Made by a program: the position numbers and the translations under genes. A model generated the notes under the pieces. It was not told where the DNA came from. It did not search any database and saw only the letters and a program-made list of their open reading frames with translations. Shown in pieces: positions 1,473 through 59,281 of a DNA stretch of 64,000 nt (positions are counted from its first letter, which is position 1; each line of letters opens with the position of its first letter). The DNA is from Dehalococcoidia bacterium. GTDB lineage: Bacteria > Chloroflexota > Dehalococcoidia > SHYD01. The stretch covers positions 2,617,733-2,681,732 of the forward strand of contig OZ253478.1 of NCBI GenBank assembly GCA_965261835.1, in the 5' to 3' direction.

Positions 1473-1536
1473 CCGCCGGCGCGGCTCCCCGCGTTCAGCG
1501 GCCATGCCGAGAGGACGGTGACGTTGCATATCGATT
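1473..1536 (+). repeat. Direct repeat of the RM gene 5' end (RBS plus first 6 codons, then stop); partner at 2380-2443
   Basis: 62/64 identical by manual alignment; reads GTG ACG TTG CAT ATC GAT TGA. Confidence 0.95.
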
Positions 1537-2424: not shown

Positions 2425-5400
2425 GTGACGTTGCATATCGATTACGACGACCCGAAATTCGCCGCCGCCGCCGCCGAGATCCTGCAGCGGCATAACAACG
2501 GCGAGCCGGAGGCCAACATCACCAGCGCGGTGCGGGGCTTCCTCATCGCCACCGGCCTGGCCAGCCCCAGCGAGATCGGCGAGGAGAACCCGCCCGCTCA
2601 AGGTTCACGCAGCGCCGTAGACCTGACCGCCCTCGACACCTTCATCGAGTCGAAGCGCCGGATCGGCAACGGCATCGACCCCAACCCCGAGTACGTCCAG
2701 CAGCTTGACGACTACCTGGCGCAGTCGGCGAAGCAAGGCCGGGAGCGGATGGGCATCCTGACCGACGGCAAGTACTGGCTGACGCGCTGGCCGAACGCCG
2801 GACCGGTCAAGCTGGTCCCGCCCTACGCCTTCACGCTGGAGAGCCCGGACGGCTGGATCCTCCTCTACGAGTGGCTGCGCGATCATGCCCTGGCCGCAGT
2901 GGAGAACAAGCAGCCCACCCGGCTCACCATCGCCGAGAGCTTCGGCCCCAACAGTCTCGCTTACCAGCGCGACGTGGCGCAGCTCAGGGCTAAGTATGAC
3001 GAGTACGCCGGTTTGAACACGATCAAGGTCAAGTACCAACTGTGGCAGAACCTGCTTACCGCGGCCCTGGGCGAAATCGCCGGCACCCCCGCGCAGTTGG
3101 ATGACCTGTTCGTCCGCCACACCTATTTGAGCGCCGTCATCGGGATGGTGGTGCAGGCGTCCTTCGGCAGCGACATCCGCCAGCTGGCGGAGACCGATCC
3201 CGCAGACCTGCTCCAGGGCCGCTCCTTCCGCAACCAGACCGGCCTGCAGGGCGTGGTGGAGTCGGACTTCTTCGCCTGGCCCACCGAGGTCGGCGGCTTG
3301 CCGCTGCTCAAAGCGCTGGCCCGCCGCGTCGCCAAGTTCGACTGGCGCAACCCGCCCAACGACATCGCCGCCATCCTCTACGAGACCGTCATCCCCCCCG
3401 AGGAGCGCCGCCAGCTCAGCGAGTACTACACCCCCGGCTGGCTGGCACGGGCCATCGTGCAGGAGCTGGTGACCGACCCCATGGACCAATACGTGCTCGA
3501 CCCGGCCTGCGGCTCCGGGACGTTCATCGCCGAAGCCGTCACCCACCTCCTCGACGCGGCCAACAAGACCTCCCTGGACGCCAAGGAGGTGTTGGACTGG
3601 CTGCGCTTCTCCGTGACCGGCATCGACGTCCACCCGGTGGCGGTGCACCTCGCCCGCGCCGCTTGGGTGCTGGCGGCGCAGCCCGCGATCCAGGCGGCGG
3701 TCGAGGACGGCTTCGCAGCCAATCTCACCGTTCCCGTCTACCTGGGAGACGCCCTCCAACTCCGGTTTCGCACCGGTGACATGTTCGCCGAGCACAACGT
3801 AACCGTCCAGGTGGAGGACGAACACCACACCGAGTTAGTCTTTCCCGTGAGCCTGGTACAGCGGGCCGAGACCTTTGACGGCCTGATGGGTGACATTGCC
3901 GATGCCATTGATCATGGCGACGACCCAGACGTCGCCCTCGATGACCATCGCATTACCGACCCCGGCGAGCGGGCGACCCTCCAGCAGACCATTGCGTCGC
4001 TGCAAAGGCTGCACGGCGAGGGCCGCGACCACATTTGGGCCTACTACACCCGCAACCTGGTGCGCCCGGTGGCCCTCGCCCAAAGCAAGGTGGACGTGAT
4101 CGTGGGCAACCCGCCCTGGCTCAACTACAACCAGACCGCCAGCATCCTGCGCAGCGAGCTGGAGCGACAGAGCAAAGACCTCTACGGCATCTGGACCGGT
4201 GGTCGTTACGCCACTCACCAAGACGTAGCCGGGCTGTTCTTCGCCCGCAGCGTTGACCTGTACTTGAAGCAGGGCGGGCTTATCGGCATGGTGCTGCCCC
4301 ACAGCGCATTGCAGACCGGCCAGTATTCCAAGTGGCGCAGCGGCGCCTGGCAGGCAAAATCCATCGGCAGCGGAAAAGGCCGCCAGCCGGGCCGGGTCCT
4401 GTCAGTGGACTTCAGTCACAAGATGGCTTGGGACCTGGAGGGGCTGGAACCCAACAGCTTCTTCCCAGTGCCGGCCGCGGTGGTGTTTGCCCGCAATCTT
4501 GGGGTGGACGCCCAGGCAATAGGGCTTGCGGGCGAGGTGGAGCGCTGGCGGGGTAAGCCGGGCGGGGACGCTGACAGGCGTAAACGCGTAGCCATAGTTG
4601 ACACATCAACAGCTAGCATATCTCCCTACGGTCATTTCTCAAGAAATGGTGCAACAATTTTCCCTCGCTGCCTCTTCTTCATCAATGAAACAGAGAACAC
4701 CGCCCTTATTCAAGCGGGTCAGACCATCACCGTGAACCCCCGCCGCGGCGGCCAGGACAAGGAACCTTGGCGCAACCTGGACCTCACCGCGCTCACCGGC
4801 CAGACCATTGAGGCTCAACACGTCTTTGATGTCTATTTAGGAGAGACGTTGGCCCCCTATGCGACGCTCGACCCGCTCAAAGCAGTACTACCCCTGAAGC
4901 CGCGCAACCGCGAACTCCCTGCCGATAGCAAAGGCGTGGGGGGTATTCGCTTGGGCGGATTGAGCCAGAGGATGCGCGACCGCTGGCGGGTCGTCAGCAA
5001 CCTGTGGGAGGCAAACAGGGCGGCAGCTACCAAAATGAACCTGTTGGGGCAGTTGGACTATTACGGCAAGCTCTCGTCGCAGTTGGAATGGCGGGCGGCT
5101 CCTGGCGACCGGCCGGTCCGGGTGGTCTACAACCAATCGGGCGCGCCGACGGCGGCGCTACTCCAGGACGATGACGCCATAGTTGACTACAGGCTGTTCT
5201 GGATTGCCTGCAAAGATGCGCAGGAAGCCCATTATCTGCTGGCCATCATCAACAGCGATGCGCTGGCAACGGCAGTAGCCCCACTCATGTCAAAGGGCCA
5301 GTTTGGGGCGCGAGACTTGGAGAAACACCTGTGGAAGCTGCCGATCCCAGCGTTCGACGCGGGCAACCCGCTGCACCTTGAGCTTGCGGCCGCGGGGGAA

Positions 5401-5565
5401 GCAGCGGCGGCAGGGGTGGCGGAGCAGCTGGCGGCGTTGCGGTCGGCGCGCGGGCAAAGCGTCAGCGTCACGATCGCGCGTCGGGAGCTGCGGGCGTGGC
5501 TGCGCGGGTCAGCGGCGGGCGCGCGGGTGGAGGCAGGGGTGGGTCGGCTGCTGGGTGGCGGGTAG
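2425..5565 (+). CDS. Type IIG-like fused restriction endonuclease / N6-adenine DNA methyltransferase
   Basis: N-terminal D...ExK plus QL..YL and GILTDG..W nuclease signature; EYYTP; DPACGSGTF (motif I); NPPW (motif IV); C-terminal TRD-like region. Confidence 0.85.
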   Translation: MTLHIDYDDPKFAAAAAEILQRHNNGEPEANITSAVRGFLIATGLASPSEIGEENPPAQGSRSAVDLTALDTFIESKRRIGNGIDPNPEYVQQLDDYLAQSAKQGRERMGILTDGKYWLTRWPNAGPVKLVPPYAFTLESPDGWILLYEWLRDHALAAVENKQPTRLTIAESFGPNSLAYQRDVAQLRAKYDEYAGLNTIKVKYQLWQNLLTAALGEIAGTPAQLDDLFVRHTYLSAVIGMVVQASFGSDIRQLAETDPADLLQGRSFRNQTGLQGVVESDFFAWPTEVGGLPLLKALARRVAKFDWRNPPNDIAAILYETVIPPEERRQLSEYYTPGWLARAIVQELVTDPMDQYVLDPACGSGTFIAEAVTHLLDAANKTSLDAKEVLDWLRFSVTGIDVHPVAVHLARAAWVLAAQPAIQAAVEDGFAANLTVPVYLGDALQLRFRTGDMFAEHNVTVQVEDEHHTELVFPVSLVQRAETFDGLMGDIADAIDHGDDPDVALDDHRITDPGERATLQQTIASLQRLHGEGRDHIWAYYTRNLVRPVALAQSKVDVIVGNPPWLNYNQTASILRSELERQSKDLYGIWTGGRYATHQDVAGLFFARSVDLYLKQGGLIGMVLPHSALQTGQYSKWRSGAWQAKSIGSGKGRQPGRVLSVDFSHKMAWDLEGLEPNSFFPVPAAVVFARNLGVDAQAIGLAGEVERWRGKPGGDADRRKRVAIVDTSTASISPYGHFSRNGATIFPRCLFFINETENTALIQAGQTITVNPRRGGQDKEPWRNLDLTALTGQTIEAQHVFDVYLGETLAPYATLDPLKAVLPLKPRNRELPADSKGVGGIRLGGLSQRMRDRWRVVSNLWEANRAAATKMNLLGQLDYYGKLSSQLEWRAAPGDRPVRVVYNQSGAPTAALLQDDDAIVDYRLFWIACKDAQEAHYLLAIINSDALATAVAPLMSKGQFGARDLEKHLWKLPIPAFDAGNPLHLELAAAGEAAAAGVAEQLAALRSARGQSVSVTIARRELRAWLRGSAAGARVEAGVGRLLGGG

Positions 5566-5567
5566 GG

Positions 5568-5653
5568 GATGCCGCCTCCATATTAAAGCCTGCCTATCGT
5601 ATAGAGCGCCGTGGCCGCCATATGTAAGGCGGGCTTCAACATAGGAAGGATGG
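5568..5653 (+). repeat. Two-site copy of the 40-bp palindromic array; direct repeat of 13942-14027
   Basis: Sites at 5576-5606 and 5616-5646; the last 40 bp (5614-5653) are identical to 13988-14027. Confidence 0.95.
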
Positions 5654-6546
5654 AAGGCAGAATGAAGTCCTTGCGAGAATTGCTGGCCTATTATAAGGGG
5701 TGCCAGATGGGTGCTGACGCTACATCTGAACGACGATTCGGGTCAAGACACGGCACGGTTACGATCTCGGATGAAACGAGGATTATTGATTCGGCCCTTC
5801 TCTATGATGCCGACCGATTGACCAAGGCGTCCTTAGCATCGTACTTGGCGTGCAGCCACCTGAGTTTGGGAGGCCACAGCACATGGGGAGACATCAGCTT
5901 GTACTATGCCCGGTTTCATAGCATCTTGGCAATGGTGCGGCTGGTAGGGATAGCCTCCGACAATAATTGGCTCTTGATTCGCACAAACGAAGAGCGCCGT
6001 GAATACAAGCGCATGAAAAAGTGCACCCAGGAAGCGAAAGAGGTCGGGTGCGGCGGGGGCAGCCACAGAGAGGCCTGGCGCATCTTCTCACGGTATTTTC
6101 AAGACTGGGCACAGGACGAGACGCCGAGAAAAGTGGCATCCATTCTGGGAGAAGACCCCATCTTCGCCAAAGGCACAGCCATGTATGCAGCGGCGATAGT
6201 GGAGCGAAACGAGGCCAACTATCTCCAGTCCAACGCCGGCGTCTTCTTTCCCGAGACCGATTTTTCGGGATCGCAGCATGTGGTTAAGGTAGCAAAGTCG
6301 CGGGGGAACTGGAACTGGTTGCGGACTGACGCTACTCCAGGTGGGTCCGAGGACTCGCCTGAAGAGTGGTTCGCCAAAGAGATGGGAACCTGGTACTTAA
6401 TCAAGTTCGTCATTGCGGCATTGGTCAAGTCGCAGGGTCAACTCCTCTTGGAAGACTATGTCTGGATTATCGACAACCTCGACGCCTACCCGGGACTGAC
6501 CCAGCACATGAAGAACGACCTTCTCGATGTGTGCACCTATGATTGA
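5650..6546 (+). CDS. Hypothetical protein, probable HEPN domain
   Basis: LYYARFH...GSH...ERNEANY matches the HEPN YYAxFH / sH / RxxADY pattern; visibly more AT-rich; start 5650 or 5662. Confidence 0.55.
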   Translation: MEGRMKSLRELLAYYKGCQMGADATSERRFGSRHGTVTISDETRIIDSALLYDADRLTKASLASYLACSHLSLGGHSTWGDISLYYARFHSILAMVRLVGIASDNNWLLIRTNEERREYKRMKKCTQEAKEVGCGGGSHREAWRIFSRYFQDWAQDETPRKVASILGEDPIFAKGTAMYAAAIVERNEANYLQSNAGVFFPETDFSGSQHVVKVAKSRGNWNWLRTDATPGGSEDSPEEWFAKEMGTWYLIKFVIAALVKSQGQLLLEDYVWIIDNLDAYPGLTQHMKNDLLDVCTYD

Positions 6547-6569
6547 CATTTTTGTGGGGTTGACGCCCC

Positions 6570-6688
6570 CGCGCGGGCAGGGCGTCAGCGTCACGATAGC
6601 GCGACGGGAGCTGCGGGCGTGGCTGCGCGGGTCAGCCGCGGGCGCGCGGGTGGAGGCAGGGGTGGGGCGGCTGCTGGGGGGCGGGTGA
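6570..6688 (+). repeat. Copy 2 of the RM gene 3' end (gene fragment with TGA stop)
   Basis: Aligns to 5448-5565 and encodes RGQGVSVTIARRELRAWLRGSAAGARVEAGVGRLLGGG*. Confidence 0.95.
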
Positions 6689-6821
6689 CGGGGGGCGACC
6701 TGCTTTGGCGAAACGGGATGGCTCACTCACAGATTTCACGGTAACATTAACATTCATTAACATGATTGTATCTACTCACTCTCAGAGTAGCCCGATACCC
6801 TGGTGACTGACAACCGGATGA

Positions 6822-9800
6822 GTGCTGAGCAAAGACACCACCACAAATCTGACCTATGGACCGGGCACGAAGGAATTCACTCTGGTGTCTGACGACAGCA
6901 GCCCGCTCTTGCTCCGTTGCCTCTCACTGGACCTTGAAGTCGGCGTCCGAGACCCCCGTATCCACGCTTTCGCCGGGGTCCGCCCGGACACTGGTCAATC
7001 CCTGATTTTCCCCGCAGCGGGCGACGGCTTGGCCGCAGCATTGGGCAAGCTAGACGACCTTTCCGATGGCGCGGACTTCCTGCTGGGCCACAATCTGATC
7101 GATTTCGATGTGCCCCAACTGCAAGCGGTGAATCCCGGTTTGCGGCTATTGCGGCTGCCAGCCGTGGATACCCTCCGACTCAATCCCCTGGCCTTCCCCC
7201 GTAACCCCTATCACCACTTGGTCAAGCACTACCAAGACGGACAACTCAAACGCGGGCGCATCAACGACCCAGAACTGGATGCCAGGCTTACGCTGGAGGT
7301 CTTCGGCAACCAGCAAAAGGCCCTGTCCGATGCATCGTCTGATCTGTTAACAGCCTGGCATTGGCTGACCACGGCGGACAAAGGTGCGGGATTCGATAGG
7401 GTTTTCGCGTCGCTGCGGCACTCGCGCAGGCCGTCCAACGCCGAGGCTTATGACGCGATTGCCACACGTTTGGCTGGCAACTCGTGCCAGGCGCGCGCCC
7501 GCGAGGCCATAGCGGATGCAGCCCGGCACCGCTGGGCACTGGCCTATGCGCTGGCGTGGCTGTCGGTGGCTGGGGGCAATTCGGTCATGCCTCCCTGGGT
7601 GCGGCATCAGTTTCCCGAAGCGGGGCAGTTGGTGCGCCGGTTGCGCGACACCGCCTGCGCCGACACCGCCTGCGGCTGGTGCCGGGAGCGGCACGACGCC
7701 CGCAAGGAGCTTGCCCGCTGGTTCGGCTTTGCCAACTTCCGGGCGGAGCCGGCGGACGAGGCCGGGCGGCCTCTGCAGCAGTCCATCGTCGAGGCGGCGA
7801 TGGCGGGGGAGCATGTGCTGGCAATCCTGCCCACCGGCGCCGGCAAGTCGCTTTGCTATCAGATACCGGCCCTGTCCCGCTACGACAAGACCGGCGCACT
7901 GACCGTGGTTATCTCGCCCCTGGTCGCCCTCATGTCTGACCAAGTGGCCGGTCTCGAGGCGCGCGGCATTGGCTCCTGCGTCACCATCAACGGGAATCTG
8001 TCCATGCCTGAGCGATCCGATGCGTTGGACCGAGTGCGGCTGGGGGATGCCGGCATCCTCATCATCTCGCCGGAGCAGCTTCGCAGTGTTTCCGTACGCC
8101 GCGCCCTGGCACAGCGTGAGATCGGTGCTTGGGTGCTGGACGAGGCCCACTGCCTCTCGAAGTGGGGGCACGACTTCCGTCCCGATTACCGTTATGTGGG
8201 GCGCTTCATCCGCAAGACAGCGGGGAAGGATCCGGCGCCGCCAGTGTTGTGCCTGACAGCGACCGCCAAGCCCGACGTGAAGGCCGAGATCGTGGCTTAC
8301 TTCCAGCAAGAGCTCGGCATCAAACTGAAGGTCTTCGACGGCGGCGCCCAACGCACCAACTTGGAATTTGTGGTGGCGCAGACGAGCAACGGGGAGAAGT
8401 TCGCCCATATTCACCAAGTCCTCATGGCCGATCTACCGCAGGATGAACCGGGCGGTGCCATCGTCTATTGCGCAACGCGACGGGAGACCGAAGAGGTCGC
8501 GGAGTTCTTGCAGGCGAAAGAGACGAAGGCGGACTACTTCCATGCAGGACTGCCGCCGGAGACCAAGAAGAACGTCCAGCAAAGCTTCATCCGCGGCGAT
8601 CTGCAGGTTATGGTCGCCACCAATGCGTTTGGCATGGGTATCGATAAGCCGGATGTGAGACTGGTGATCCATGCCGACATCCCCAGTTCCCTAGAGAACT
8701 ACCTGCAGGAGGCGGGCCGCGCCGGACGGGACCAGCGGACCGCGCGCTGCGTCCTGTTCTACACACTGGATGATGTGGAACGCCAGTTCGGCATGTCAGC
8801 GCGTTCGCGGCTCACGCGGCGGGAGATCCACGGCATCCTGAAGGCACTGCGGAATCTGGACCGGAAGAAACGCCTGGGCGGCCAGGTCGAGGCCACTGCC
8901 GGTGAGATCCTCGGTGAAGACGAAGACAAAGCATTCGGGCGAGATTCCGCCACCGACGACACCCGAGTGCGGACCGCAGTGGCTTGGCTGGAGGAGGCGG
9001 CGCTGCTGACCCGAGAGGAGAACCGGGTGCAGCTGTTTCCGTCCTCCTTGCGGGTGGGTTCAACAGACGAGGCACGGGACAAGATCGAGAAGGCTCCCAT
9101 CGCGAAGGGTTATGGCCGCCAATTGCTGACCATCTCCGAGACGCTGATCGGGGCGGATGCGGATGAGGGCATCTCCACCGACGAGCTGATGGCCGCGGCG
9201 GGTCTGACCTCTGAGGGAGTGCGCGGCGCGCTCTACGACCTAGAACGGTTGGGGATCGCCAGCAACGATACGGTGTTGACCGCCTTCGTCCACACCGGGG
9301 TGGAGCGCGCCTCGCGGAGACGCTTAGAGGAGGCGGAGGCATTGGAGCGGTCTCTGATTGCCCTATTGCGCGAGACAGCTCCGGATATGGCTAAGGGCGA
9401 TACGTCGACGCTGCATCTCCGCCTCGCCACGCAACGGCTCAAGGATAACGGTCATAGCTACGCCCTGCCCGAACGCTTATGGCGGATCGTCCGTAGCATC
9501 GCCGCCGACGGACGGGGTGAGGGCGGCAGTGGCGGAAGCCTTGGAGTGCGCCAATTGGATCGGGAGACCGTGCAAGTGACGTTGCAACGCGAGTGGGAAG
9601 CGTTGGAAATGACCGCTGAAATGCGTCGCGCAGGTGCCCGGCGACTGCTGGATCATCTACTCGCCTGCCTGCCTCCAAGAAGCCGGGGCACGGACCTGCT
9701 GGCGGAGACGACCCTCGGCAAGCTGTTGAAAGCCATCGAGGCCGACCTCATCCTTAGGAGTCAAGTTAGGGACCCCGCCAAGCTAATGGACCGCGCCCTG

Positions 9801-12008
9801 CTGTGGCTACACGAACAGGAGGTCGTCCGGCTGAATAAGGGTCTGGCCGTGTTCCGCCCCGCCATGACCATCCATCTGAGGCCGGAACAGCGCGGCTTCG
9901 CCCAGGCCGACTTTGCATCCCTTAAGATCCACTACGACGAACAGGTGCTGCAGATTCACGTGATGGCGGAATTCGTACAGCAGGGCCTTAGAGCCATGGC
10001 CGGCGCCCTGCGTTTGGCTGCAGACTATTTCAGCCTTCGCCGAGAAGACTTTCTGCACCGCTGGCTACGGGATCGAGACAGCGAACTCTCGCGTCAAACC
10101 ACGCCGGAATCGTGGCAGACCATCGTCGAAAGCCTGAAGAACCCCATCCAGCGACGAATCGTGGCGGATGACCGGGAGCAGACGAATGTCCTGGTGCTCG
10201 CAGGCCCCGGCTCCGGCAAGACCCGCGTGCTGGTACATCGCATCGCCTATCTGATTCGCGCAAAGCGTGAGAACCCGCGCGGCATCGTGGCTCTAGCCTA
10301 CAACCGGCACGCCGCGGTGGAGATCCGCCGCCGCATATCAGAGCTCATTGGCGACGACGCCCGCAGAGTGATTGTGCTCACCTGCCACGCGCTCGCCATG
10401 CGACTGGTCGGCACCAGTTTCACGGGGCGTGCGAATCGTCTGGAGGAGGGGGATTTCCAGGAAGTACTCCGGCAGGCTTCGGCCCTATTGCACGGGGAAG
10501 GACTGCCGCCCGACGAAGTAGACGAGTATCGGGCACGTCTGCTGGCAGGTTTCCGCTGGATATTGGTGGACGAGTACCAGGACATTGGCCCGGATCAGTA
10601 CGAATTGATTTCCGCCCTGGCAGGCAGAACCCTTGCCGACGAGGACGACAAGCCCAGCCTCTTTGCAGTGGGGGACGACGATCAGAACATCTATGCCTTC
10701 AGTGGCTCGTCGGTGGAGTTTATCCACCGTTTCGAGACGGACTACGGAGCCAAGCCCGCCTTCCTAACCGACAACTATCGTTCCACCGGTCACATCATCG
10801 CGGCCGCCAATGCGGTGATGCACCCGGCCCGGCAACGGATGAAGACCGGGCATCCAATTCACGTCGACCGGGCACGCGAGAAGGAATCGCCTGGCGGTGC
10901 ATGGACTGAACGGGACCCGGTCGCCCGCGGTCGAGTCCAGATACTCCCGGCTGGCGACACCCCTATCTCCCAAGCGCAGGCGGTCGTCGCTGAGTTGAAG
11001 CGGTTGTCCGATCTCACGTCCGACTGGAACTGGTCCGCTTGCGCGGTGGTGGCGCGCGAATGGAGCTACCTGGATCCGGTGCGCAGCCTCTGCGAGCTTG
11101 AGGGGATTCCGGTGCAGCTGGCGAGCGAAGAGCTCTCGAGCGTCTGGCATCTACGGGAGACTCAAGCGCTTTTGAACTGGCTACGCGGGCGCAACTCCAA
11201 GTTGGTTAAGAATGCGGACCTGCACGACTGGGTAGTCAATCAACCCTCAGGCCCTTGGATCGAACTGCTGATGGAAGCCATAACCGAGTACGGCGAGGAG
11301 ACCAGTGGCGCGGAAACATCGGTGGAGCACTTCATCGAATGGCTGGCCGAGTGGGGAAGGGACGTGCGTCGCCGCCAACGCGGGCTGCTGCTGCTGACCG
11401 CCCATCGCGCCAAGGGCTTGGAGTTCGACCACGTGGTTGTGCTGGACGGAGGCTGGGATCGCGTTGGCAGTGGCGAGGATGCGGGGGCCCCGCGCCGGTT
11501 GTACTACGTGGCCATGACCCGCGCACGGCAGACCCTCGCCCTCGCGCGCTTTCCAAGGTCGCACCCACTCCAGAATGCGTTGTCGGACACTTCCTCGGTG
11601 CTGCGCCGCCGGGATCCCGTAAAACTCCCACCGGCAGCGCCGGAGCTCGCCCGCCGCTATCGGCGGCTCAGCCTGCGCGACGTCTTTCTGAGCTTCGCAG
11701 GGTACCAACGCCCTAGCGATCCGGTGCATCGCGCCATTGCCGCGCTCTCGCCCGGCGATCTGCTACAGGCGCGGGTCCAGTCGAATCGCCGGTCGAATCG
11801 CTGGGAGCTTCTGAACCGCGACGGGATGGTCGTAGGACGACTTGCTGGTGATTTCGAGGCTCCTGCCGGCATGCGCTGCACGTTTGCCACGGTCTCGGCC
11901 ATCGCCACCTGGAACCGCGAGAGTTCGGATCCGCAGTACCTAGACCGCCTTAAATGCGATACCTGGGAAGTGGTGGTCCCGGAGCTGGTGTTCGAGCCCG
12001 AGTCGTAA
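6822..12008 (+). CDS. Large fusion of DEDD-like exonuclease, RecQ SF2 helicase and UvrD/Rep SF1 helicase
   Basis: DLEV and GHNLIDFD; [31 protein letters not shown]; [41 protein letters not shown]. True start may be GTG near 6886. Confidence 0.88.
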
Positions 12009-12095: not shown

Positions 12096-12241
12096 GCAGC
12101 TCGCCGCACTGCGCGCCGCCCGCGGCCACAGCGTCAGCGTCACGATAGCGCGTCGGGAGCTGCGGGCGTGGCTGCGCGGGTCAGCCGCGGGCGCGCGGGT
12201 GGAGGCAGGGGTGGGGCGGCTGCTGGGTGGCGGGTAGGGGA
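12096..12241 (+). repeat. Copy 3 of the RM gene 3' end (gene fragment with TAG stop)
   Basis: 12130-12241 differs from 5458-5569 at 3 synonymous positions; 12096-12129 encodes QLAALRAARGH with recoded third positions. Confidence 0.95.
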
Positions 12242-12538: not shown

Positions 12539-13762
12539 CTATGGTGAATCGTCCCCTCCACTGACTTGGGGGTCTTCCGTGCCTTCGCCGAAAATGCTGA
12601 CGTACGCATCGTAGCTAAAAAGGCGATTGCGCCTTCGCCCGGTAAGTTCCTTCAGAATACCAACGTTAACGAGGCGTGTGACGAGACCATTGGCAGCAGC
12701 ATAGCTGGTTCCGGTTATCTGCTGCACGCTGGCAACCGATAGATAAGGCTGTTGGTAGAGGCTTTCGAGAACGCGGTGGCCGTTGGCAGCAGCCTGGCCG
12801 AGGTGGTTGGTAACGGCCGTTCGGTGTTGTTCCCGAAGCGCAACGATGCGCCGGGCGGTCTTGGTGGCTTCCTCGCTCACTTCAGCCACGCCGCGGAGAA
12901 AGAACTTGAGCCAGCCCTCCCAATCGCCATGGTCCCGCACGGCTTGCAGGCGGTCGTAATATGACTGCCGTCGGCTCCTGAAATAGTGCGACAGGTACAG
13001 CACTGGCTTGCTCAGGATGCCCCATTCGGTCAGCAGGAAGGTGATGAGCAGCCTCCCTATGCGCCCGTTTCCGTCGAGGAAGGGGTGGATCGTCTCGAAC
13101 TGGGCATGGGCCAATCCAGTGCGCACGACGGCTGGAAGGGAATCGCTTTTGTGCAGAAAGGCTTCTAGTTCTCCCAGGACCCGGGGCACCTCCTGGGGTG
13201 GCGGGGGCACAAAATCGGCTTCGTTAAGCCCGCTGCCTGCAGCGCCAATCCAGTTCTGGCTGGTTCGCAGCTCCCCCGGCGTTAGCTGTGCGCCCCGGAC
13301 ACCTCGAAGCAACCGGGCGTGGATCTCCCTGATGAGACGAATGGATAGCGGCAGGTCATGTAGCCGCTCGAGTCCGTAGTTCATCGCAGATACGTAATTG
13401 ATCACCTCATACACGTCACGAGGACGGCCCGGCGTGCGAATCTGTGCCTCGGCGGCCAGCACGTCCTGGAGCGAGCTCTGCGTGCCTTCGATCTGGCTGG
13501 AGAGCACGGCTTCCTTCCGCACGTACATGAACACGAAGAGGTCAGGGTCGGGCAAGGTCTGGATGGAACCATCTAGGCGGCCCAAGGCGCTATCGGCGTT
13601 TGATAACAAGACCTGAAGCTCGCCGGTCAAATCCAGCGGTGGTTCCGGTGGAAGCCGGGCCGGGATAAAGGCGCGGTAGCCGGTTGGTTGGGGCAAGTAC
13701 TGCCCGGCTCGCCCAGAAGCGCGCGGGTGGTCTCGGGGAGGTTGAGTGTGCCCACTAACCAT
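12539..13762 (-). CDS. Fic family protein with N-terminal inhibitory motif and C-terminal HTH-like region
   Basis: HPFLDGNGRIGR catalytic loop; SSQIEG inhibitory motif. Confidence 0.92.
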   Translation of the reverse strand: MVSGHTQPPRDHPRASGRAGQYLPQPTGYRAFIPARLPPEPPLDLTGELQVLLSNADSALGRLDGSIQTLPDPDLFVFMYVRKEAVLSSQIEGTQSSLQDVLAAEAQIRTPGRPRDVYEVINYVSAMNYGLERLHDLPLSIRLIREIHARLLRGVRGAQLTPGELRTSQNWIGAAGSGLNEADFVPPPPQEVPRVLGELEAFLHKSDSLPAVVRTGLAHAQFETIHPFLDGNGRIGRLLITFLLTEWGILSKPVLYLSHYFRSRRQSYYDRLQAVRDHGDWEGWLKFFLRGVAEVSEEATKTARRIVALREQHRTAVTNHLGQAAANGHRVLESLYQQPYLSVASVQQITGTSYAAANGLVTRLVNVGILKELTGRRRNRLFSYDAYVSIFGEGTEDPQVSGGDDSP

Positions 13763-13768
13763 GGAAGG

Positions 13769-14027
13769 TCCAATATGGCGGGAGTCCGCCTCTATAGTAT
13801 AGTCTGCCTATAGTATAGAGCGAGATTGCCGCCATATGCAAGGCTGGCTATAATATGGCGAGATCTCCGCTCCATAGTATAGTTTGTCTATAGTATGGAG
13901 CGCCGTGGCCGCCATATGTAAGGCAGGCTACACTATGGCGAGATGCCCGCCCCATATTAAAGTCTGCCTTTACTATGGAGCGCTTTTGCCGCCATATGTA
14001 AGGCGGGCTTCAACATAGGAAGGATGG
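13769..14027. repeat. 40-bp-period array of six 31-bp imperfect palindromes (12-7-12) plus a leading half-site
   Basis: Sites start at 13790, 13830, 13870, 13910, 13950 and 13990; arms CKCCATA.. / ..TATGGMG; 9-bp linkers. Confidence 0.95.
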
Positions 14028-14033
14028 CCGGGG

Positions 14034-14762
14034 CTAGCGGCGGTAGTCCACCACCCGGAAGGTCTCAACCAGCCCGTGCTCCATGCCTTCGGGCAGCGCG
14101 CCCATGAAGCGGCGGGACATGGTCTTCATGCGTTCGGTGAACTCTTCCACCGAGCGATCGCCCACCTGGCTCTGGTGGCAGCGCAGCGCCTGTATCTTCA
14201 GATCGAAGGTGTCGCTGATATCCATGAACACATCGGGCTCCTCCGGGCCGGACACAAAGACCTGGCCGGTCTTGTGCGACTCCAGCCCCTCGGCCTCGTG
14301 CTCCGGGTAGGTGAGCCGGTCCCGTGCATAGGGGAACACCGCATCCATGGCCATGATCGCCGCCATGCGGTGGTCCCGGTGCTGGCGGTAGCGGCGGTAG
14401 GGGTCCATGGTGATGACAATGTCGGGCTTGAGGGTGCGGATGTAGCGGACGACTTGGCCGCGGCCCTCCTTGGTGTCCTCAACGCCGCCGTCAGGATGGC
14501 CCAGGAAAAAGACGTCCTTCACGCCGAGCGTGGCGGCCGCGGCCCGCTGCTCCGCCTCCCTGGTCTGGGCTAGGCGCTCCGGCGTCATCTGCGGGTCTTC
14601 GGTGCCCTTATCGCCGCGGGTGAACAGCACGTAGTAGATCTCCTTGCCCTCTTGGGCCCACTTACCAATGGTGCCGCCCGCGGAGAACTCGGCGTCGTCA
14701 GGATGGGCCATCACCAGCATGACGCGTTGGGCCCAGGCGCCGGGCAGTTCGTTTTCAGCCAT
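14034..14762 (-). CDS. PIG-L/LmbE family N-acetylglucosaminyl deacetylase (MshB/BshB-like)
   Basis: AHPDDAE and HRDH motifs; start overlaps the upstream GT stop. Confidence 0.88.
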   Translation of the reverse strand: MAENELPGAWAQRVMLVMAHPDDAEFSAGGTIGKWAQEGKEIYYVLFTRGDKGTEDPQMTPERLAQTREAEQRAAAATLGVKDVFFLGHPDGGVEDTKEGRGQVVRYIRTLKPDIVITMDPYRRYRQHRDHRMAAIMAMDAVFPYARDRLTYPEHEAEGLESHKTGQVFVSGPEEPDVFMDISDTFDLKIQALRCHQSQVGDRSVEEFTERMKTMSRRFMGALPEGMEHGLVETFRVVDYRR

Positions 14763-25850: not shown

Positions 25851-27626
25851 CTACGGCAGCTGTTTCCGCAGAATGGCCGGCTGCGGTGTGGTCTCCGCAA
25901 CCGAGGTGCCCAAGGCACCAGCACCCGCGGCAATGTGGAGTATGCTGCTGTCGCCCCCCACTCCAAGGGTGAGGTCGCCAACGGTATGTAGAGGACCCCC
26001 CACATCAATGGTAACCATCTCACCGTCAGGGGTAATCCGCAGCAGTGCATTCGTGAGGAACGAACTCACGTAGACATTGTCGTCCCCATCAATAACAAGG
26101 CCGTTCGCGCCACGCAGGTTTCCACAATTCGGCGCGACCAACAGCTTCGGCACGCCGGGGCTACGATCACCGCTGACCGATATTTTGATCACCGAAGGCT
26201 TAGTCATGTTGGCCACAAACAGGGCGCCGTGGGAATCAAAGGCCAAGCCGTTGGCACCTACGTCAAGGGGCACCTCTTCCGCCCCGCAGTATTCTTTGTC
26301 ACCCATCAAGAGCGGGCTCTCTTTCCATTTGATTAATACCCCGCCCGGGGAGATTCTGAATATCGCTCCCGCTAGTGAATCGCTGACGTACAGGTCACCG
26401 TTGGCATCGAACTTCAACGCATTCGGGAACGTCATATCATGGTGGGACGCGAAGAGGGAGTAATTTCCGCTCCTGGCATGGACTCGGTAGATCCCGGTCG
26501 GACTCGCGGGGTTAAAGGAGACTTGGGCCACATAGAGGAAGCCGTTGCGATCCGCGGCTATCCCCGTCAGGTACCCCATACCGAGAGCGATTGGAGGCAG
26601 TTGAGCGACCACCCTGAAGCTACCATCATCTGGGTTGATTTTGACCACCTGGCCGGTATTAGCAAAGCTGGCATACAGCGCGTCCTCCCCGGCAGCCAAC
26701 CCTAGGGGGCGCTGACCCATGCCGGCGTCGAAGGCAGTCAGCACATGTATGGGGTCGCCGTAGGCCGCCGTGTATTCCCGGTCGTAGGAAACAAGGTCTC
26801 GGATATCCTCAATGCTGCGGCCGCTGCTGACCCAGGCGTGCAGTCCTGTGCAATCCCCGGAGAAGGGGTCCCGGCCCACGAGGTAGCTGTAGACGTCACG
26901 GATGGACGTTACCAATTGGCCTTCCTCGCTGATAGCGAGTGTCGCCCGTAGCTGCGCTGACGGTACACCGGCCGCTGCCCAAGTCTCCACGCCGTGCGGG
27001 TCCGGTCTGCGGCAAAGCACGGACATGTAGATGTCGGAGACCGTATCCGGCTCGACATCTTGCCTCTGGGCTTCATCGCTGTCCGATATAAGCTTCTGGA
27101 TTGCACCCACAGTGCGCTCATTGTCCACCCAGCTGCGCAAGCCGGGGCAGTCGCCGGGTATGGGGTCACGGTTGAGCAGGTGGCGGTACAGCGCACGGAC
27201 TGCGGTGGTTCGCTGCCCCTCCGCGCTTATGGCAAGCGCGGCCCGCAGCTGGTCCGCAGGCATGGCTGAGCTCACCCATGACGTGAGATCAGCGCCCGGC
27301 GCCCGGCAGAGGATCTCCCAGGATACCGCAGTCACCATCTCCTCTCGGTGGTTGGCCGCGGCCACGCCGGTGCGGGGTACAAAGAACAACGCCGTGGCGA
27401 GCATAGTCACTAGTACCATGCCCAACACAACGCCCGTAAAACGCTTTCCGGCAGTCACCTTCTCCGCTCGGTGGTTGCCCGCTCGGTTGCTAGCCGCTCG
27501 GTTGCTGGCCGCTCGGTGCTTGCCCGCAGCCACGCCGGTGCGGAGTACAAAGAATAAGACCGTGGCGAGCGTAGTCAGCAATACGATGCCCAACACAACG
27601 CCCGAATGACGCTTTAGGCTCGACAT
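25851..27626 (-). CDS. Membrane-anchored/secreted SMP-30/gluconolactonase-like beta-propeller with helical repeats
   Basis: FPNALKFD, GANGLAFD, GANGLVID blades; duplicated N-terminal TM segments; two LY..LL.R.P repeats. Confidence 0.7.
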   Translation of the reverse strand: MSSLKRHSGVVLGIVLLTTLATVLFFVLRTGVAAGKHRAASNRAASNRAGNHRAEKVTAGKRFTGVVLGMVLVTMLATALFFVPRTGVAAANHREEMVTAVSWEILCRAPGADLTSWVSSAMPADQLRAALAISAEGQRTTAVRALYRHLLNRDPIPGDCPGLRSWVDNERTVGAIQKLISDSDEAQRQDVEPDTVSDIYMSVLCRRPDPHGVETWAAAGVPSAQLRATLAISEEGQLVTSIRDVYSYLVGRDPFSGDCTGLHAWVSSGRSIEDIRDLVSYDREYTAAYGDPIHVLTAFDAGMGQRPLGLAAGEDALYASFANTGQVVKINPDDGSFRVVAQLPPIALGMGYLTGIAADRNGFLYVAQVSFNPASPTGIYRVHARSGNYSLFASHHDMTFPNALKFDANGDLYVSDSLAGAIFRISPGGVLIKWKESPLLMGDKEYCGAEEVPLDVGANGLAFDSHGALFVANMTKPSVIKISVSGDRSPGVPKLLVAPNCGNLRGANGLVIDGDDNVYVSSFLTNALLRITPDGEMVTIDVGGPLHTVGDLTLGVGGDSSILHIAAGAGALGTSVAETTPQPAILRKQLP

Positions 27627-58033: not shown

Positions 58034-59281
58034 CTACTGGATCAGCTTCAAGATCATCTGACCCGTCACGCCCATCTGATCATCATTTATGTGGTTGCCG
58101 CTGAGCCACGTGTACTTCCGTCCCGGCTTCGGCTTACTGACCTCGTCCGCCACCGGCACATCGGTACGCCGGCTGTTCTCCCGGGTGGCGTTCTGGAAGG
58201 AGAGTTGCCCTTCCTTGCTGAGGAACCAGTTTGCATACAGCTTGGCCGCGGCGGGGTGCTGCGCGCCCTTCAGCGAGAACATTTGGTGCGACATATTCTG
58301 GCTCGCCGCCTCTGGGATGTCGATGGTCTTAAGATTTGTACCCAGGCCTTCCTTCTTGAACTCCTCGAGCACAGGAATGAGTACTCCGGTGGCAATGGCG
58401 TATTGGCCCCGCACCATGGCCTCTGTGATTTGGCGGTTGTCCCGGCTGAACGCCGGCTCCATATCCACAAACACCTTCTTAAGGATCTCATCACCTTGGC
58501 TGAGACGCAGTGCGGTGGCCGGGGCCGACGTGTACCCGGAACGGGGGTCGGTGAAGAAGATCTTCCCCTTCCACTTGGGGTTTATCACGTCGTAGATGCT
58601 CTTGATCTCCCCTTCCTTCACTAGGTCCGTGTTGATCCAGAACAGCTGTGGCACGTTCATCCCGAAGCCGTAGCCGTACTCCTTACCGGGATCGACCCAA
58701 CCAAACTCATAGCCCTCGGTCCAATTGCTGTCCCCGGTGATATCCGGTCGGAAGATTTCTCCCTTCATCGGTCGCAGCGCGCCATCATTGAGGAGCGTTT
58801 CAGCAAAGCGGATCGACGTGAAGATGAGGTCGTAGGAGTAGATGCCGGCTTGATGCTCCTGCAGCAGCTTCGGGACTAGCAGGCTTCCCGAGTTCTCCGA
58901 AGAGATCTCGACCTTCACGCCAAACTCATCCGAGAATTCTTCGCCAATAGGCTGGTAGCTTCCGCCGGAGCTCCGGATCCAGTTGATAGTCAGCAGCCCT
59001 TCCTTCTTGGCGGCCGGTATCAGTGCGTCCCAATCCTGCTCCCACTGCGGTTTAGCCGGTGCCGCGGGCGCCGCCGTTGCGGCCGGAGCAGGTGCGGCCG
59101 GAGCAGGTGCGGGCGCCGCAGGAGCCGCAGGCTGCGCGGGAGCTGCCGGGGCTGCGGGAGCCGGTGCCGGAGCTGGCGCCGCCGCAGGCGCGCACGCCGC
59201 CGCCAGTGCGGCCGCGCCAGTCAAACCGCCGACTCTAAGAAACGTACGGCGAGACTTGTAGAAATCACTGGAGTCGCGCAT
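58034..59281 (-). CDS. ABC transporter substrate-binding lipoprotein with Tat signal (Fe/thiamine-like class)
   Basis: SRRTFL, LAAAC lipobox, Ala/Pro linker, AKKEG, PKWKGK, HPAAAKL..NW.LS.EGQ. Confidence 0.85.
   Translation of the reverse strand: MRDSSDFYKSRRTFLRVGGLTGAAALAAACAPAAAPAPAPAPAAPAAPAQPAAPAAPAPAPAAPAPAATAAPAAPAKPQWEQDWDALIPAAKKEGLLTINWIRSSGGSYQPIGEEFSDEFGVKVEISSENSGSLLVPKLLQEHQAGIYSYDLIFTSIRFAETLLNDGALRPMKGEIFRPDITGDSNWTEGYEFGWVDPGKEYGYGFGMNVPQLFWINTDLVKEGEIKSIYDVINPKWKGKIFFTDPRSGYTSAPATALRLSQGDEILKKVFVDMEPAFSRDNRQITEAMVRGQYAIATGVLIPVLEEFKKEGLGTNLKTIDIPEAASQNMSHQMFSLKGAQHPAAAKLYANWFLSKEGQLSFQNATRENSRRTDVPVADEVSKPKPGRKYTWLSGNHINDDQMGVTGQMILKLIQ

What the first reader, a model, noticed from the sequence alone, without database searches (positions are those of the whole stretch)
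5568..5653. A two-site copy of the palindromic array feeds the HEPN gene and bounds an 8.4-kb block
Seen: 5568-5653 repeats 13942-14027 directly, and the last 40 nt are identical. It starts 3 nt after the RM stop, and its end (AGGAAGG-ATG) supplies an RBS and start for the HEPN-like ORF. The copy at 14021-14027 has the same signal but no cargo gene, running into the convergent deacetylase. The 5.6-kb copy is a mosaic: left arm like site 5, right arm like site 1, linker CGCCGTGGC as at 13901, second site equal to site 6. Inference: array units recombine, and the end of the array is a filled versus empty expression dock.
Basis: partly seen in the sequence, partly recalled or inferred. Interest (0 to 1): 0.72.

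Follow-up and report, generated by a model that had tools for sequence, protein, structure and literature searches.

The report
Recombining Fic operator array copy
The repeat is real: it is a two-site copy of a 40-bp-spaced palindrome array that travels with one family of Fic enzymes across many phyla and is likely the site where the Fic protein represses its own gene, and in relatives such arrays bracket the fic gene and remain as solo arrays where the gene is missing.

Summary
Observation confirmed: 5568-5653 matches 13942-14027 at 75/86 nt, last 40 identical. The unit is a 27-bp palindrome (consensus CCATATTAAAGGCWGCCTTTAATATGG) at 40-bp period. 21 of 28 GTDB loci with the motif sit at the 5' end of a SoFic-like Fic-wHTH gene, and all 6 closest Fic homologues, found without the motif, carry it. 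SoFic and CccR bind their own promoters (papers), so an autoregulatory operator is most likely; binding is untested here. The 'mosaic' 5.6-kb copy occurs intact beside fic in run X15. The expression-dock claim is weak: HEPN-fold homologues start at the equivalent of ATG 5662, not 5650. No RM-deacetylase deletion allele and no nearby tyrosine recombinase were seen. New variant of a known kind; interest 0.5.

The parts
5568..5653 (.). Two-site copy of the fic-distal end (sites 5-6) of the palindrome array; 27-bp sites at 5578-5604 and 5618-5644; far arm of a direct repeat bounding the 8.4-kb block
   Evidence: same allele at the fic locus in run X15
13792..14027 (.). Six-site array, 40-bp period, alternating A/B units (80-bp doublet), directly upstream of fic; likely Fic operator array
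12539..13762 (-). SoFic-like Fic gene (Fic_N + Fic, homology to SoFic running through its C-terminal winged-helix region)
   Evidence: Pfam; PADLOC SoFic E 5e-122; PDB SoFic chains E 5e-38, query 38-374
5662..6546 (+). 294-aa ORF with a likely HEPN fold; start at ATG 5662 by homologues
   Evidence: fold search top rows HEPN, Z 9.5, rmsd 3.6 over 137 residues; no Pfam or Foldseek match
2425..5565 (+). Type IIG restriction-modification gene; its 3' flank joins site 5 through a 2-nt (GA) overlap at 5568-5569
6547..6692 (+). Second copy of the RM gene 3' end, right after the HEPN-fold ORF
6822..12008 (+). RecQ/UvrD-type helicase gene, cargo inside the block
12096..12241 (+). Third copy of the RM gene 3' end, about 300 nt from the fic stop
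14034..14756 (-). PIG-L deacetylase, chromosomal backbone; in the seven same-family genomes other genes follow it and no site was found in the held flank

Best explanation
The 40-bp-period palindromes are likely the autoregulatory operator array of the adjacent SoFic-like Fic-wHTH gene, and 5568-5653 is a second, direct-repeat copy of its two distal sites that likely marks a recombination scar rather than a dedicated expression dock. Shown: the motif sits at the 5' end of one Fic clade across phyla, a sister clade has a different palindrome, units are shuffled between strains, and in one genus fic is bracketed by arrays and solo arrays stand where it is missing. Inferred: a Fic dimer places its two winged helices on the CATA and TATG half-sites, 21 bp (two turns, about 71 A) apart, and represses the fic promoter. 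Inferred: in-register homologous recombination between 40/80-bp units changes copy number and can delete whatever lies between two arrays. Inferred for this locus: the 5.6-kb copy came with an island variant from another strain, either as the remnant of an RM-fic-array segment that lost fic and sites 1-4 at the GA overlap, or by single-crossover integration at sites 5-6. It may put the HEPN-fold gene under Fic control as a side effect.
For: Motif-first: 21 of 28 GTDB loci have a Fic 5' end (at least 45% identity) within 200 nt of the array; 25 of 28 first matches are at exactly 40-bp spacing although 37-43 was allowed. In metagenomes 16 of 34 loci with two or more matrix sites do so, of 44 hits. 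Gene-first: 6 of 6 Fic homologues at 65% identity or more have sites upstream, 4 of 23 below that, and none has an in-gene score above 0. The label clusters on a quick Fic tree (4 changes against 16.2 shuffled; 30 of the 39 labelled rows were found by the motif). A sister clade has CTTRTT...AAYAAG palindromes instead. CccR represses itself through an inverted repeat, with DNA-binding helices 70.2 A apart (PMC9755527, passages). Dimeric SoFic binds the first 100 bp upstream of its gene (bioRxiv 10.64898/2026.07.09.737422, abstract and passages). Bracketing and loss: 10 filled, 4 solo and 9 site-free alleles among 23 genomes with both anchors, interspersed on a flank tree. Downstream copies occur in 5 of 66 fic loci, plus L190. 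Run X15 carries all 8 of the 5.6-kb letters from 13963 to 13987 in one contig that runs from fic into the deacetylase.
Against: No binding or expression data. CccR's operator (10-N26-10) differs in sequence and geometry, and CbFic2 binds random DNA tightly (PMC10628234, passages). 7 of 28 GTDB arrays and 12 plausible metagenome arrays have no fic beside them, four of these near contig ends. The consensus scan found a promoter-like site only on the strand pointing away from fic (13826-13854). Only 5 of 66 fic loci show a downstream copy within the held flank. The hybrid test on solo arrays is mixed: the 5' parts of 3 of 4 fit the upstream array, the 3' parts are ambiguous, and G420 fits the downstream array throughout. 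Here the copy is 6.9 kb from fic and is the distal end, unlike the close brackets in the other genus.
Confidence: 0.7

Rival explanations
1. Portable regulatory dock: the array plus its terminal start signal is duplicated on purpose, so that cargo genes captured behind it (HEPN-fold ORF here; YhcG, DndB-like, type IIG RM or hsdR elsewhere) are expressed under Fic control, and solo arrays can be refilled.
For: The downstream arrays of G421, G418 and G412 end in a geneless copy of the fic start signal. Fic-less arrays precede YhcG, DndB-like, type IIG RM, hsdR-like and AAA genes. In Pirellula loci YhcG sits behind two sites between hsdM and hsdS, the slot fic holds in L071. L061 has a two-site copy before a gene block absent from its relative L079. 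AAGGA at 5646-5650 lies 11 nt before ATG 5662.
Against: ATG 5650 is not the homologues' start. The HEPN-fold ORF lies on the fic-distal side. No refilled solo array was seen among 23 alleles. Loss of fic from an array-fic-next-gene operon explains most orphans; L134 keeps a fic N-terminal remnant and L057 an internally deleted fic. Some orphans sit between housekeeping genes (L069, L070).
Confidence: 0.15
2. Site-specific recombination sites (Xer/pdif-like or att sites of a tyrosine recombinase) that define a fic cassette; the palindrome is arm-core-arm with an asymmetric 5-7-bp core.
For: Arm-core-arm anatomy with alternating core orientation in this window. Filled, solo and site-free alleles at one locus. 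The arm resembles a XerD-type arm in 8 letters (recalled motif).
Against: No homologue of the genome's three tyrosine recombinases in 64 loci (E <= 1e-4; positive control worked). The nearest such gene in G000 is about 280 kb away. Cores vary freely between adjacent sites. The motif changes with the Fic clade. The XerD-like letters face a 13-bp gap, not a 6-bp one. Fic start codons often lie in the last arm.
Confidence: 0.1
3. A passive REP/BIME-like or minisatellite repeat with no protein partner, copied by chance duplication.
For: Near-identical tandem expansions of up to 10 units (L076, L086, L053). A-type sites can form hairpins (from the sequence).
Against: Only two loci in the genome. 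Strict position at fic 5' ends across phyla. Conserved 40-bp phase with free 13-bp linkers.
Confidence: 0.05

Closest known systems
CccR autoregulatory operator, Yersinia pseudotuberculosis (PMC9755527; passages read)
   Same: Fic domain plus C-terminal HTH; a dimer binds an inverted repeat in its own promoter and represses it; the window's Fic matches PDB 7xux, titled 'Fido domain-containing protein' and taken as CccR by recall and e1-776403 (E 2e-17)
   Different: One 46-nt operator (10-N26-10) against 2-10 tandem 27-bp sites at 40-bp period; different sequence; no flanking copies mentioned in the passages read
SoFic (Shewanella oneidensis SO_4266) promoter binding (bioRxiv 10.64898/2026.07.09.737422; abstract and passages) and the SoFic anti-phage system
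   Same: Closest solved relative (E 5e-38) and PADLOC SoFic match; the dimer binds the first 100 bp upstream; defence-island context here (RM, helicase, HEPN fold, HicAB)
   Different: No site sequence or array in the main text (0 occurrences of 'palindrom', 'operator' or 'inverted repeat'; supplements not seen); about 35% identity by eye
LTR/solo-LTR-type or direct-repeat-mediated gene loss (general knowledge, recalled)
   Same: Gene bracketed by direct repeats; a single repeat left where the gene is missing
   Different: The repeat is a likely operator array, the cargo is a Fic gene, and there is no reverse transcriptase or integrase
pdif modules / integron cassettes (recalled)
   Same: A gene flanked by short palindromic sites; filled and empty states
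   Different: No cognate recombinase nearby, variable cores, tandem sites with no cargo between them, and a motif tied to a Fic clade

Membership tests
Fic-wHTH autoregulatory operator (CccR/SoFic type) | Adjacent gene encodes Fic_N + Fic + C-terminal winged helix | tested here: met
   (alignment to SoFic through query residue 374 of 390); Pfam SoFic-like_C itself did not hit
Fic-wHTH autoregulatory operator (CccR/SoFic type) | Palindrome within the region just upstream of the fic start | tested here: met
   site 1 starts 30 nt from ATG 13762; 21 of 28 and 6 of 6 in other genomes
Fic-wHTH autoregulatory operator (CccR/SoFic type) | Site sequence tracks the Fic clade | tested here: met
   (quick tree; 30 of 39 rows selected by the motif; clustering is not proof of co-evolution)
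Fic-wHTH autoregulatory operator (CccR/SoFic type) | Sequence-specific binding by the dimer and repression | not testable with these tools
   needs EMSA, footprint and reporter
Fic-wHTH autoregulatory operator (CccR/SoFic type) | Overlap with the fic promoter | tested here: inconclusive
   one search found a sigma-70-like site only on the opposite strand
Tyrosine-recombinase att / pdif site | Cognate recombinase gene linked to the sites | tested here: not met
   (tblastn with three G000 recombinases over 64 loci; serine recombinases not tested; host Xer can act unlinked)
Tyrosine-recombinase att / pdif site | Conserved 6-8-bp core shared by partner sites | tested here: not met
   cores TCTGC, GCTGG, TTTGT, GCAGG, TCTGC, GCGGG, CCTGC in this window
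Tyrosine-recombinase att / pdif site | Filled and empty alleles with a fixed crossover | tested here: inconclusive
   alleles exist; crossover not resolvable at about 80% identity
Expression dock (integron attI-like) | Site supplies the RBS and start codon of the cargo | tested here: not met
   19 of 21 homologues start at the ATG 5662 equivalent (gene-caller starts); part of an SD may still come from the repeat end
Expression dock (integron attI-like) | Same site precedes variable genes in other genomes | tested here: inconclusive
   fic-less arrays precede several defence genes, but fic loss explains them too; the exact 40-mer was not found in 60 relatives
HEPN domain (cargo ORF) | HEPN helical fold | tested here: inconclusive
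   top rows are HEPN proteins, Z 9.5 and 8.6, below the tool's caution level for helical folds; no Pfam or Foldseek hit
REP/BIME | Many dispersed copies in the genome | tested here: not met
   two loci only

The most novel reading that the evidence does not exclude
Fic operator arrays are dual-use modules: they repress fic and also act as LTR-like direct repeats, so array-fic-array cassettes are excised and re-acquired without a dedicated recombinase. Solo or duplicated arrays then act as docks that bring other defence genes, such as the HEPN-fold ORF, under Fic control: a Fic-run defence regulon assembled by recombination at its own operators.
Probability: 0.25. Interest if true: 0.75.

Novelty: new variant of a known kind. 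Interest (0 to 1): 0.5.

Why it matters
It gives an exact, testable operator consensus and phase for a widespread SoFic-like clade whose promoter binding is reported but whose site I did not find in print. It also shows that these arrays can bracket fic and remain as solo scars, which offers a route for gain and loss of a toxic defence gene and a marker for past fic carriage. If duplicated arrays control neighbouring genes, Fic would be a regulator of defence islands.

Tried and rejected
Array DNA against 60 relatives: no match outside G000. RM gene homologues (62 of 401 class genomes, G000 included): none of the 29 non-self loci has a site within 1.5 kb, so the array is not an RM feature. HEPN-fold ORF context elsewhere: 1 distant hit in 400 class genomes, no site; none in viral contigs; its 35 database homologues have no DNA I could read, so the key catalogue is open. 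Deletion allele RM-[5,6]-deacetylase: no such loose end in X6, X8, X10 or X15; the joint table for X1 and X5 was cut, and contigs break at a 40-nt repeat, so this shows nothing. Low cover of the ORF in X5, X6 and X8 is not used as evidence. Two X10 contigs join the deacetylase end to other sequence with only 30 nt of overlap: weak, may be other organisms. No RNA holder listed. Viral pattern hits (3), five metagenome loci of one non-palindromic tandem repeat (L126, L129, L131, L146, L156) and L122 were dropped as unrelated. The single-site pattern over 400 class genomes gave mostly coding chance hits. A dif-like scan gave two unverified candidates. The protein atlas gave no result. Foldseek gave no match at E <= 0.001. 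The careful Fic tree did not finish, so the quick tree is used; rows with stops or partial cover were left out. The term 'pristine' for site-free alleles was dropped: they are sisters of filled alleles with support 0.96-0.99 and may be complete losses. PMC12249575 (passages) has no promoter-site data. SoFic preprint supplements (promoter sequence, Table S2) were not seen and may bear on novelty.

Full report
Observation. The two stretches match at 75 of 86 nt and the last 40 nt are identical. The unit is a palindrome, CYATA-N4-AG-core5-CT-N4-TATRG, repeated every 40 bp: six sites at 13792-14018 and two at 5578-5644. A matrix trained on 100 sites from other genomes scores these eight at 22.6-39.4 bits and finds nothing else at 12 bits or more in the 2.76-Mb single-contig genome; five shuffled genomes never reached 20 bits. 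Short-read contigs of run X1 (possibly the source sample) and of X5 reproduce the junctions without differences.

Surroundings. From left to right: glyoxalase, hicAB, type IIG RM gene, two-site copy, 294-aa ORF, RM 3'-end copy, RecQ/UvrD helicase, RM 3'-end copy, fic (minus strand), six-site array, deacetylase (minus strand). The array lies directly upstream of fic. In the seven same-family genomes other genes follow the deacetylase and no site was found in the held flank. None of 29 RM homologue loci has a site within 1.5 kb.

What the sites travel with. A two-site pattern found 28 loci in GTDB across many phyla, 25 at exactly 40-bp spacing although 37-43 was allowed. 21 of 28 have the 5' end of a close Fic homologue within 200 nt. 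The consensus is CCATATTAAAGGCWGCCTTTAATATGG, with 2-10 sites per array. In metagenomes, 34 of 44 hits had two or more matrix sites and 16 of these abut fic. Six were dropped as unrelated repeats; 12 are fic-less, four of them near contig ends. In the reverse test on the 29 best class homologues, 6 of 6 at 65% identity or more have sites upstream and 4 of 23 below that. A sister clade carries CTTRTT...AAYAAG palindromes. On a quick tree of 58 rows the motif needs 4 changes against 16.2 for shuffled labels, but 30 of the 39 motif rows were found by the motif and kin share labels.

Known biology. The Fic is SoFic-like through the C-terminal region. Dimeric SoFic binds the first 100 bp upstream of its gene (bioRxiv 10.64898/2026.07.09.737422; abstract and passages; supplements not seen). 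CccR represses itself through a 10-N26-10 inverted repeat and has DNA-binding helices 70.2 A apart (PMC9755527; passages). CbFic2 binds random DNA (PMC10628234; passages), which counts against assuming specificity. The CATA and TATG half-sites here are 21 bp apart, about 71 A; the fit to a dimer is my inference. Searches for such arrays or for flanking repeats found no description (open-access library only). Earlier AI notes in this scan reached a similar operator reading for other Fic arrays; they are not independent support.

Do units recombine? In runs X10 and X15 the linker after site 3 reads like this window's linker after site 5, X15 has the reverse change after site 5, and X15's site 4 resembles site 2. 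X15 carries, in one 7.5-kb contig covering fic start to deacetylase, all 8 letters that distinguish the 5.6-kb copy between 13963 and 13987. A downstream array copy was found in 5 of 66 fic loci and in L190. Following that lead, genus g114 (28 genomes, 23 with both anchors) shows at one locus 10 array-fic-array alleles, 4 solo arrays (230-245-bp gap, no fic) and 9 site-free alleles (74-89 bp). The states are interspersed on a 960-nt flank tree, which suggests repeated loss; support is uneven. The solo arrays look partly hybrid: the 5' parts of 3 of 4 fit the upstream array, the 3' parts are ambiguous. G154 and G365 carry a bracketed fic at a second locus. No tyrosine recombinase homologue lies in 64 loci examined, and the nearest in G000 is about 280 kb away.

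Is it an expression dock? AGGA ends 3 nt before ATG 5650. 19 of 21 homologues begin at the ATG 5662 equivalent and the database entry is 294 aa. The repeat end may still supply SD letters (AAGGA, 11 nt before 5662). The frame from ATG 14024 gives 27 codons antisense to the deacetylase. The ORF has a likely HEPN fold (Z 9.5), with no Pfam or Foldseek match. In favour of a dock, downstream arrays in G421, G418 and G412 end in a geneless copy of the fic start signal, and fic-less arrays precede YhcG, DndB-like, type IIG RM, hsdR-like and AAA genes. Against it, fic remnants (L134, L057) show that loss explains orphans, no refilled solo array was seen, and here the ORF lies on the fic-distal side.

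Mechanism. Most likely (0.7) a Fic dimer binds each palindrome and represses fic, and the periodic array is recombinogenic. The 5.6-kb copy is then the far arm of a direct repeat. The RM 3' flank joins site 5 through a 2-nt overlap, where RM copy 3 instead continues toward fic. This fits a duplicated RM-fic-array segment that lost fic and sites 1-4, or integration at a solo two-site array; I cannot separate these. The predicted RM-[5,6]-deacetylase allele was not seen and cannot be excluded with contigs. Rivals: regulatory dock 0.15, site-specific att 0.1, passive repeat 0.05.

Verdict. A new variant of a known kind: self-binding Fic-wHTH operators are known, whereas the 40-bp phased array, the bracketing of fic and the solo scars were not found in my searches. 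Interest 0.5.

Noticed in passing
   Followed up: partly
window 1473-1536 and 2380-2443: 64-nt direct repeat (97%) covering the RM start region brackets hicAB, as if hicAB entered with a duplication of the RM 5' end.
   Followed up: no
L061 3561-6800 versus L079: A block of about 3 kb (two-site array copy plus several ORFs) lies between fic and a 165-nt copy of the fic 3' end; the relative L079 lacks it. Same layout as the RM 3'-end duplications here.
   Followed up: partly
L203-L229 (genus g114): Three allele states at one locus: array-fic-array, solo array, site-free. Sites there alternate strong and weak at about 81-bp period.
   Followed up: yes
L097-L106 upstream of fic: A sister Fic clade has a different palindrome family (CTTRTT...AAYAAG) with long and short spacers.
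   Followed up: partly
L071, L078, L085, L086 and g114 loci: The fic start codon often appears to be the ATG inside the right arm of the last, degenerate site.
   Followed up: partly
L054, L055, L075, L115, L153: Two sites precede a YhcG/DUF1016 gene, after hsdM where that side is held, with no fic in the locus.
   Followed up: partly
L082, L126, L129, L131, L146, L156: A two-copy 40-nt tandem repeat in a low-GC, virus-like contig family matched the pattern; it is not palindromic and looks unrelated.
   Followed up: no
window 27341-27615 and 59064-59189: A 107-nt two-copy repeat at 168-nt spacing and a GC-rich 15/21-nt coding-type repeat.
   Followed up: no
window 13826-13854: A sigma-70-like site (10 of 12) inside site 2 points away from fic, toward the deacetylase 3' end.
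   Followed up: no
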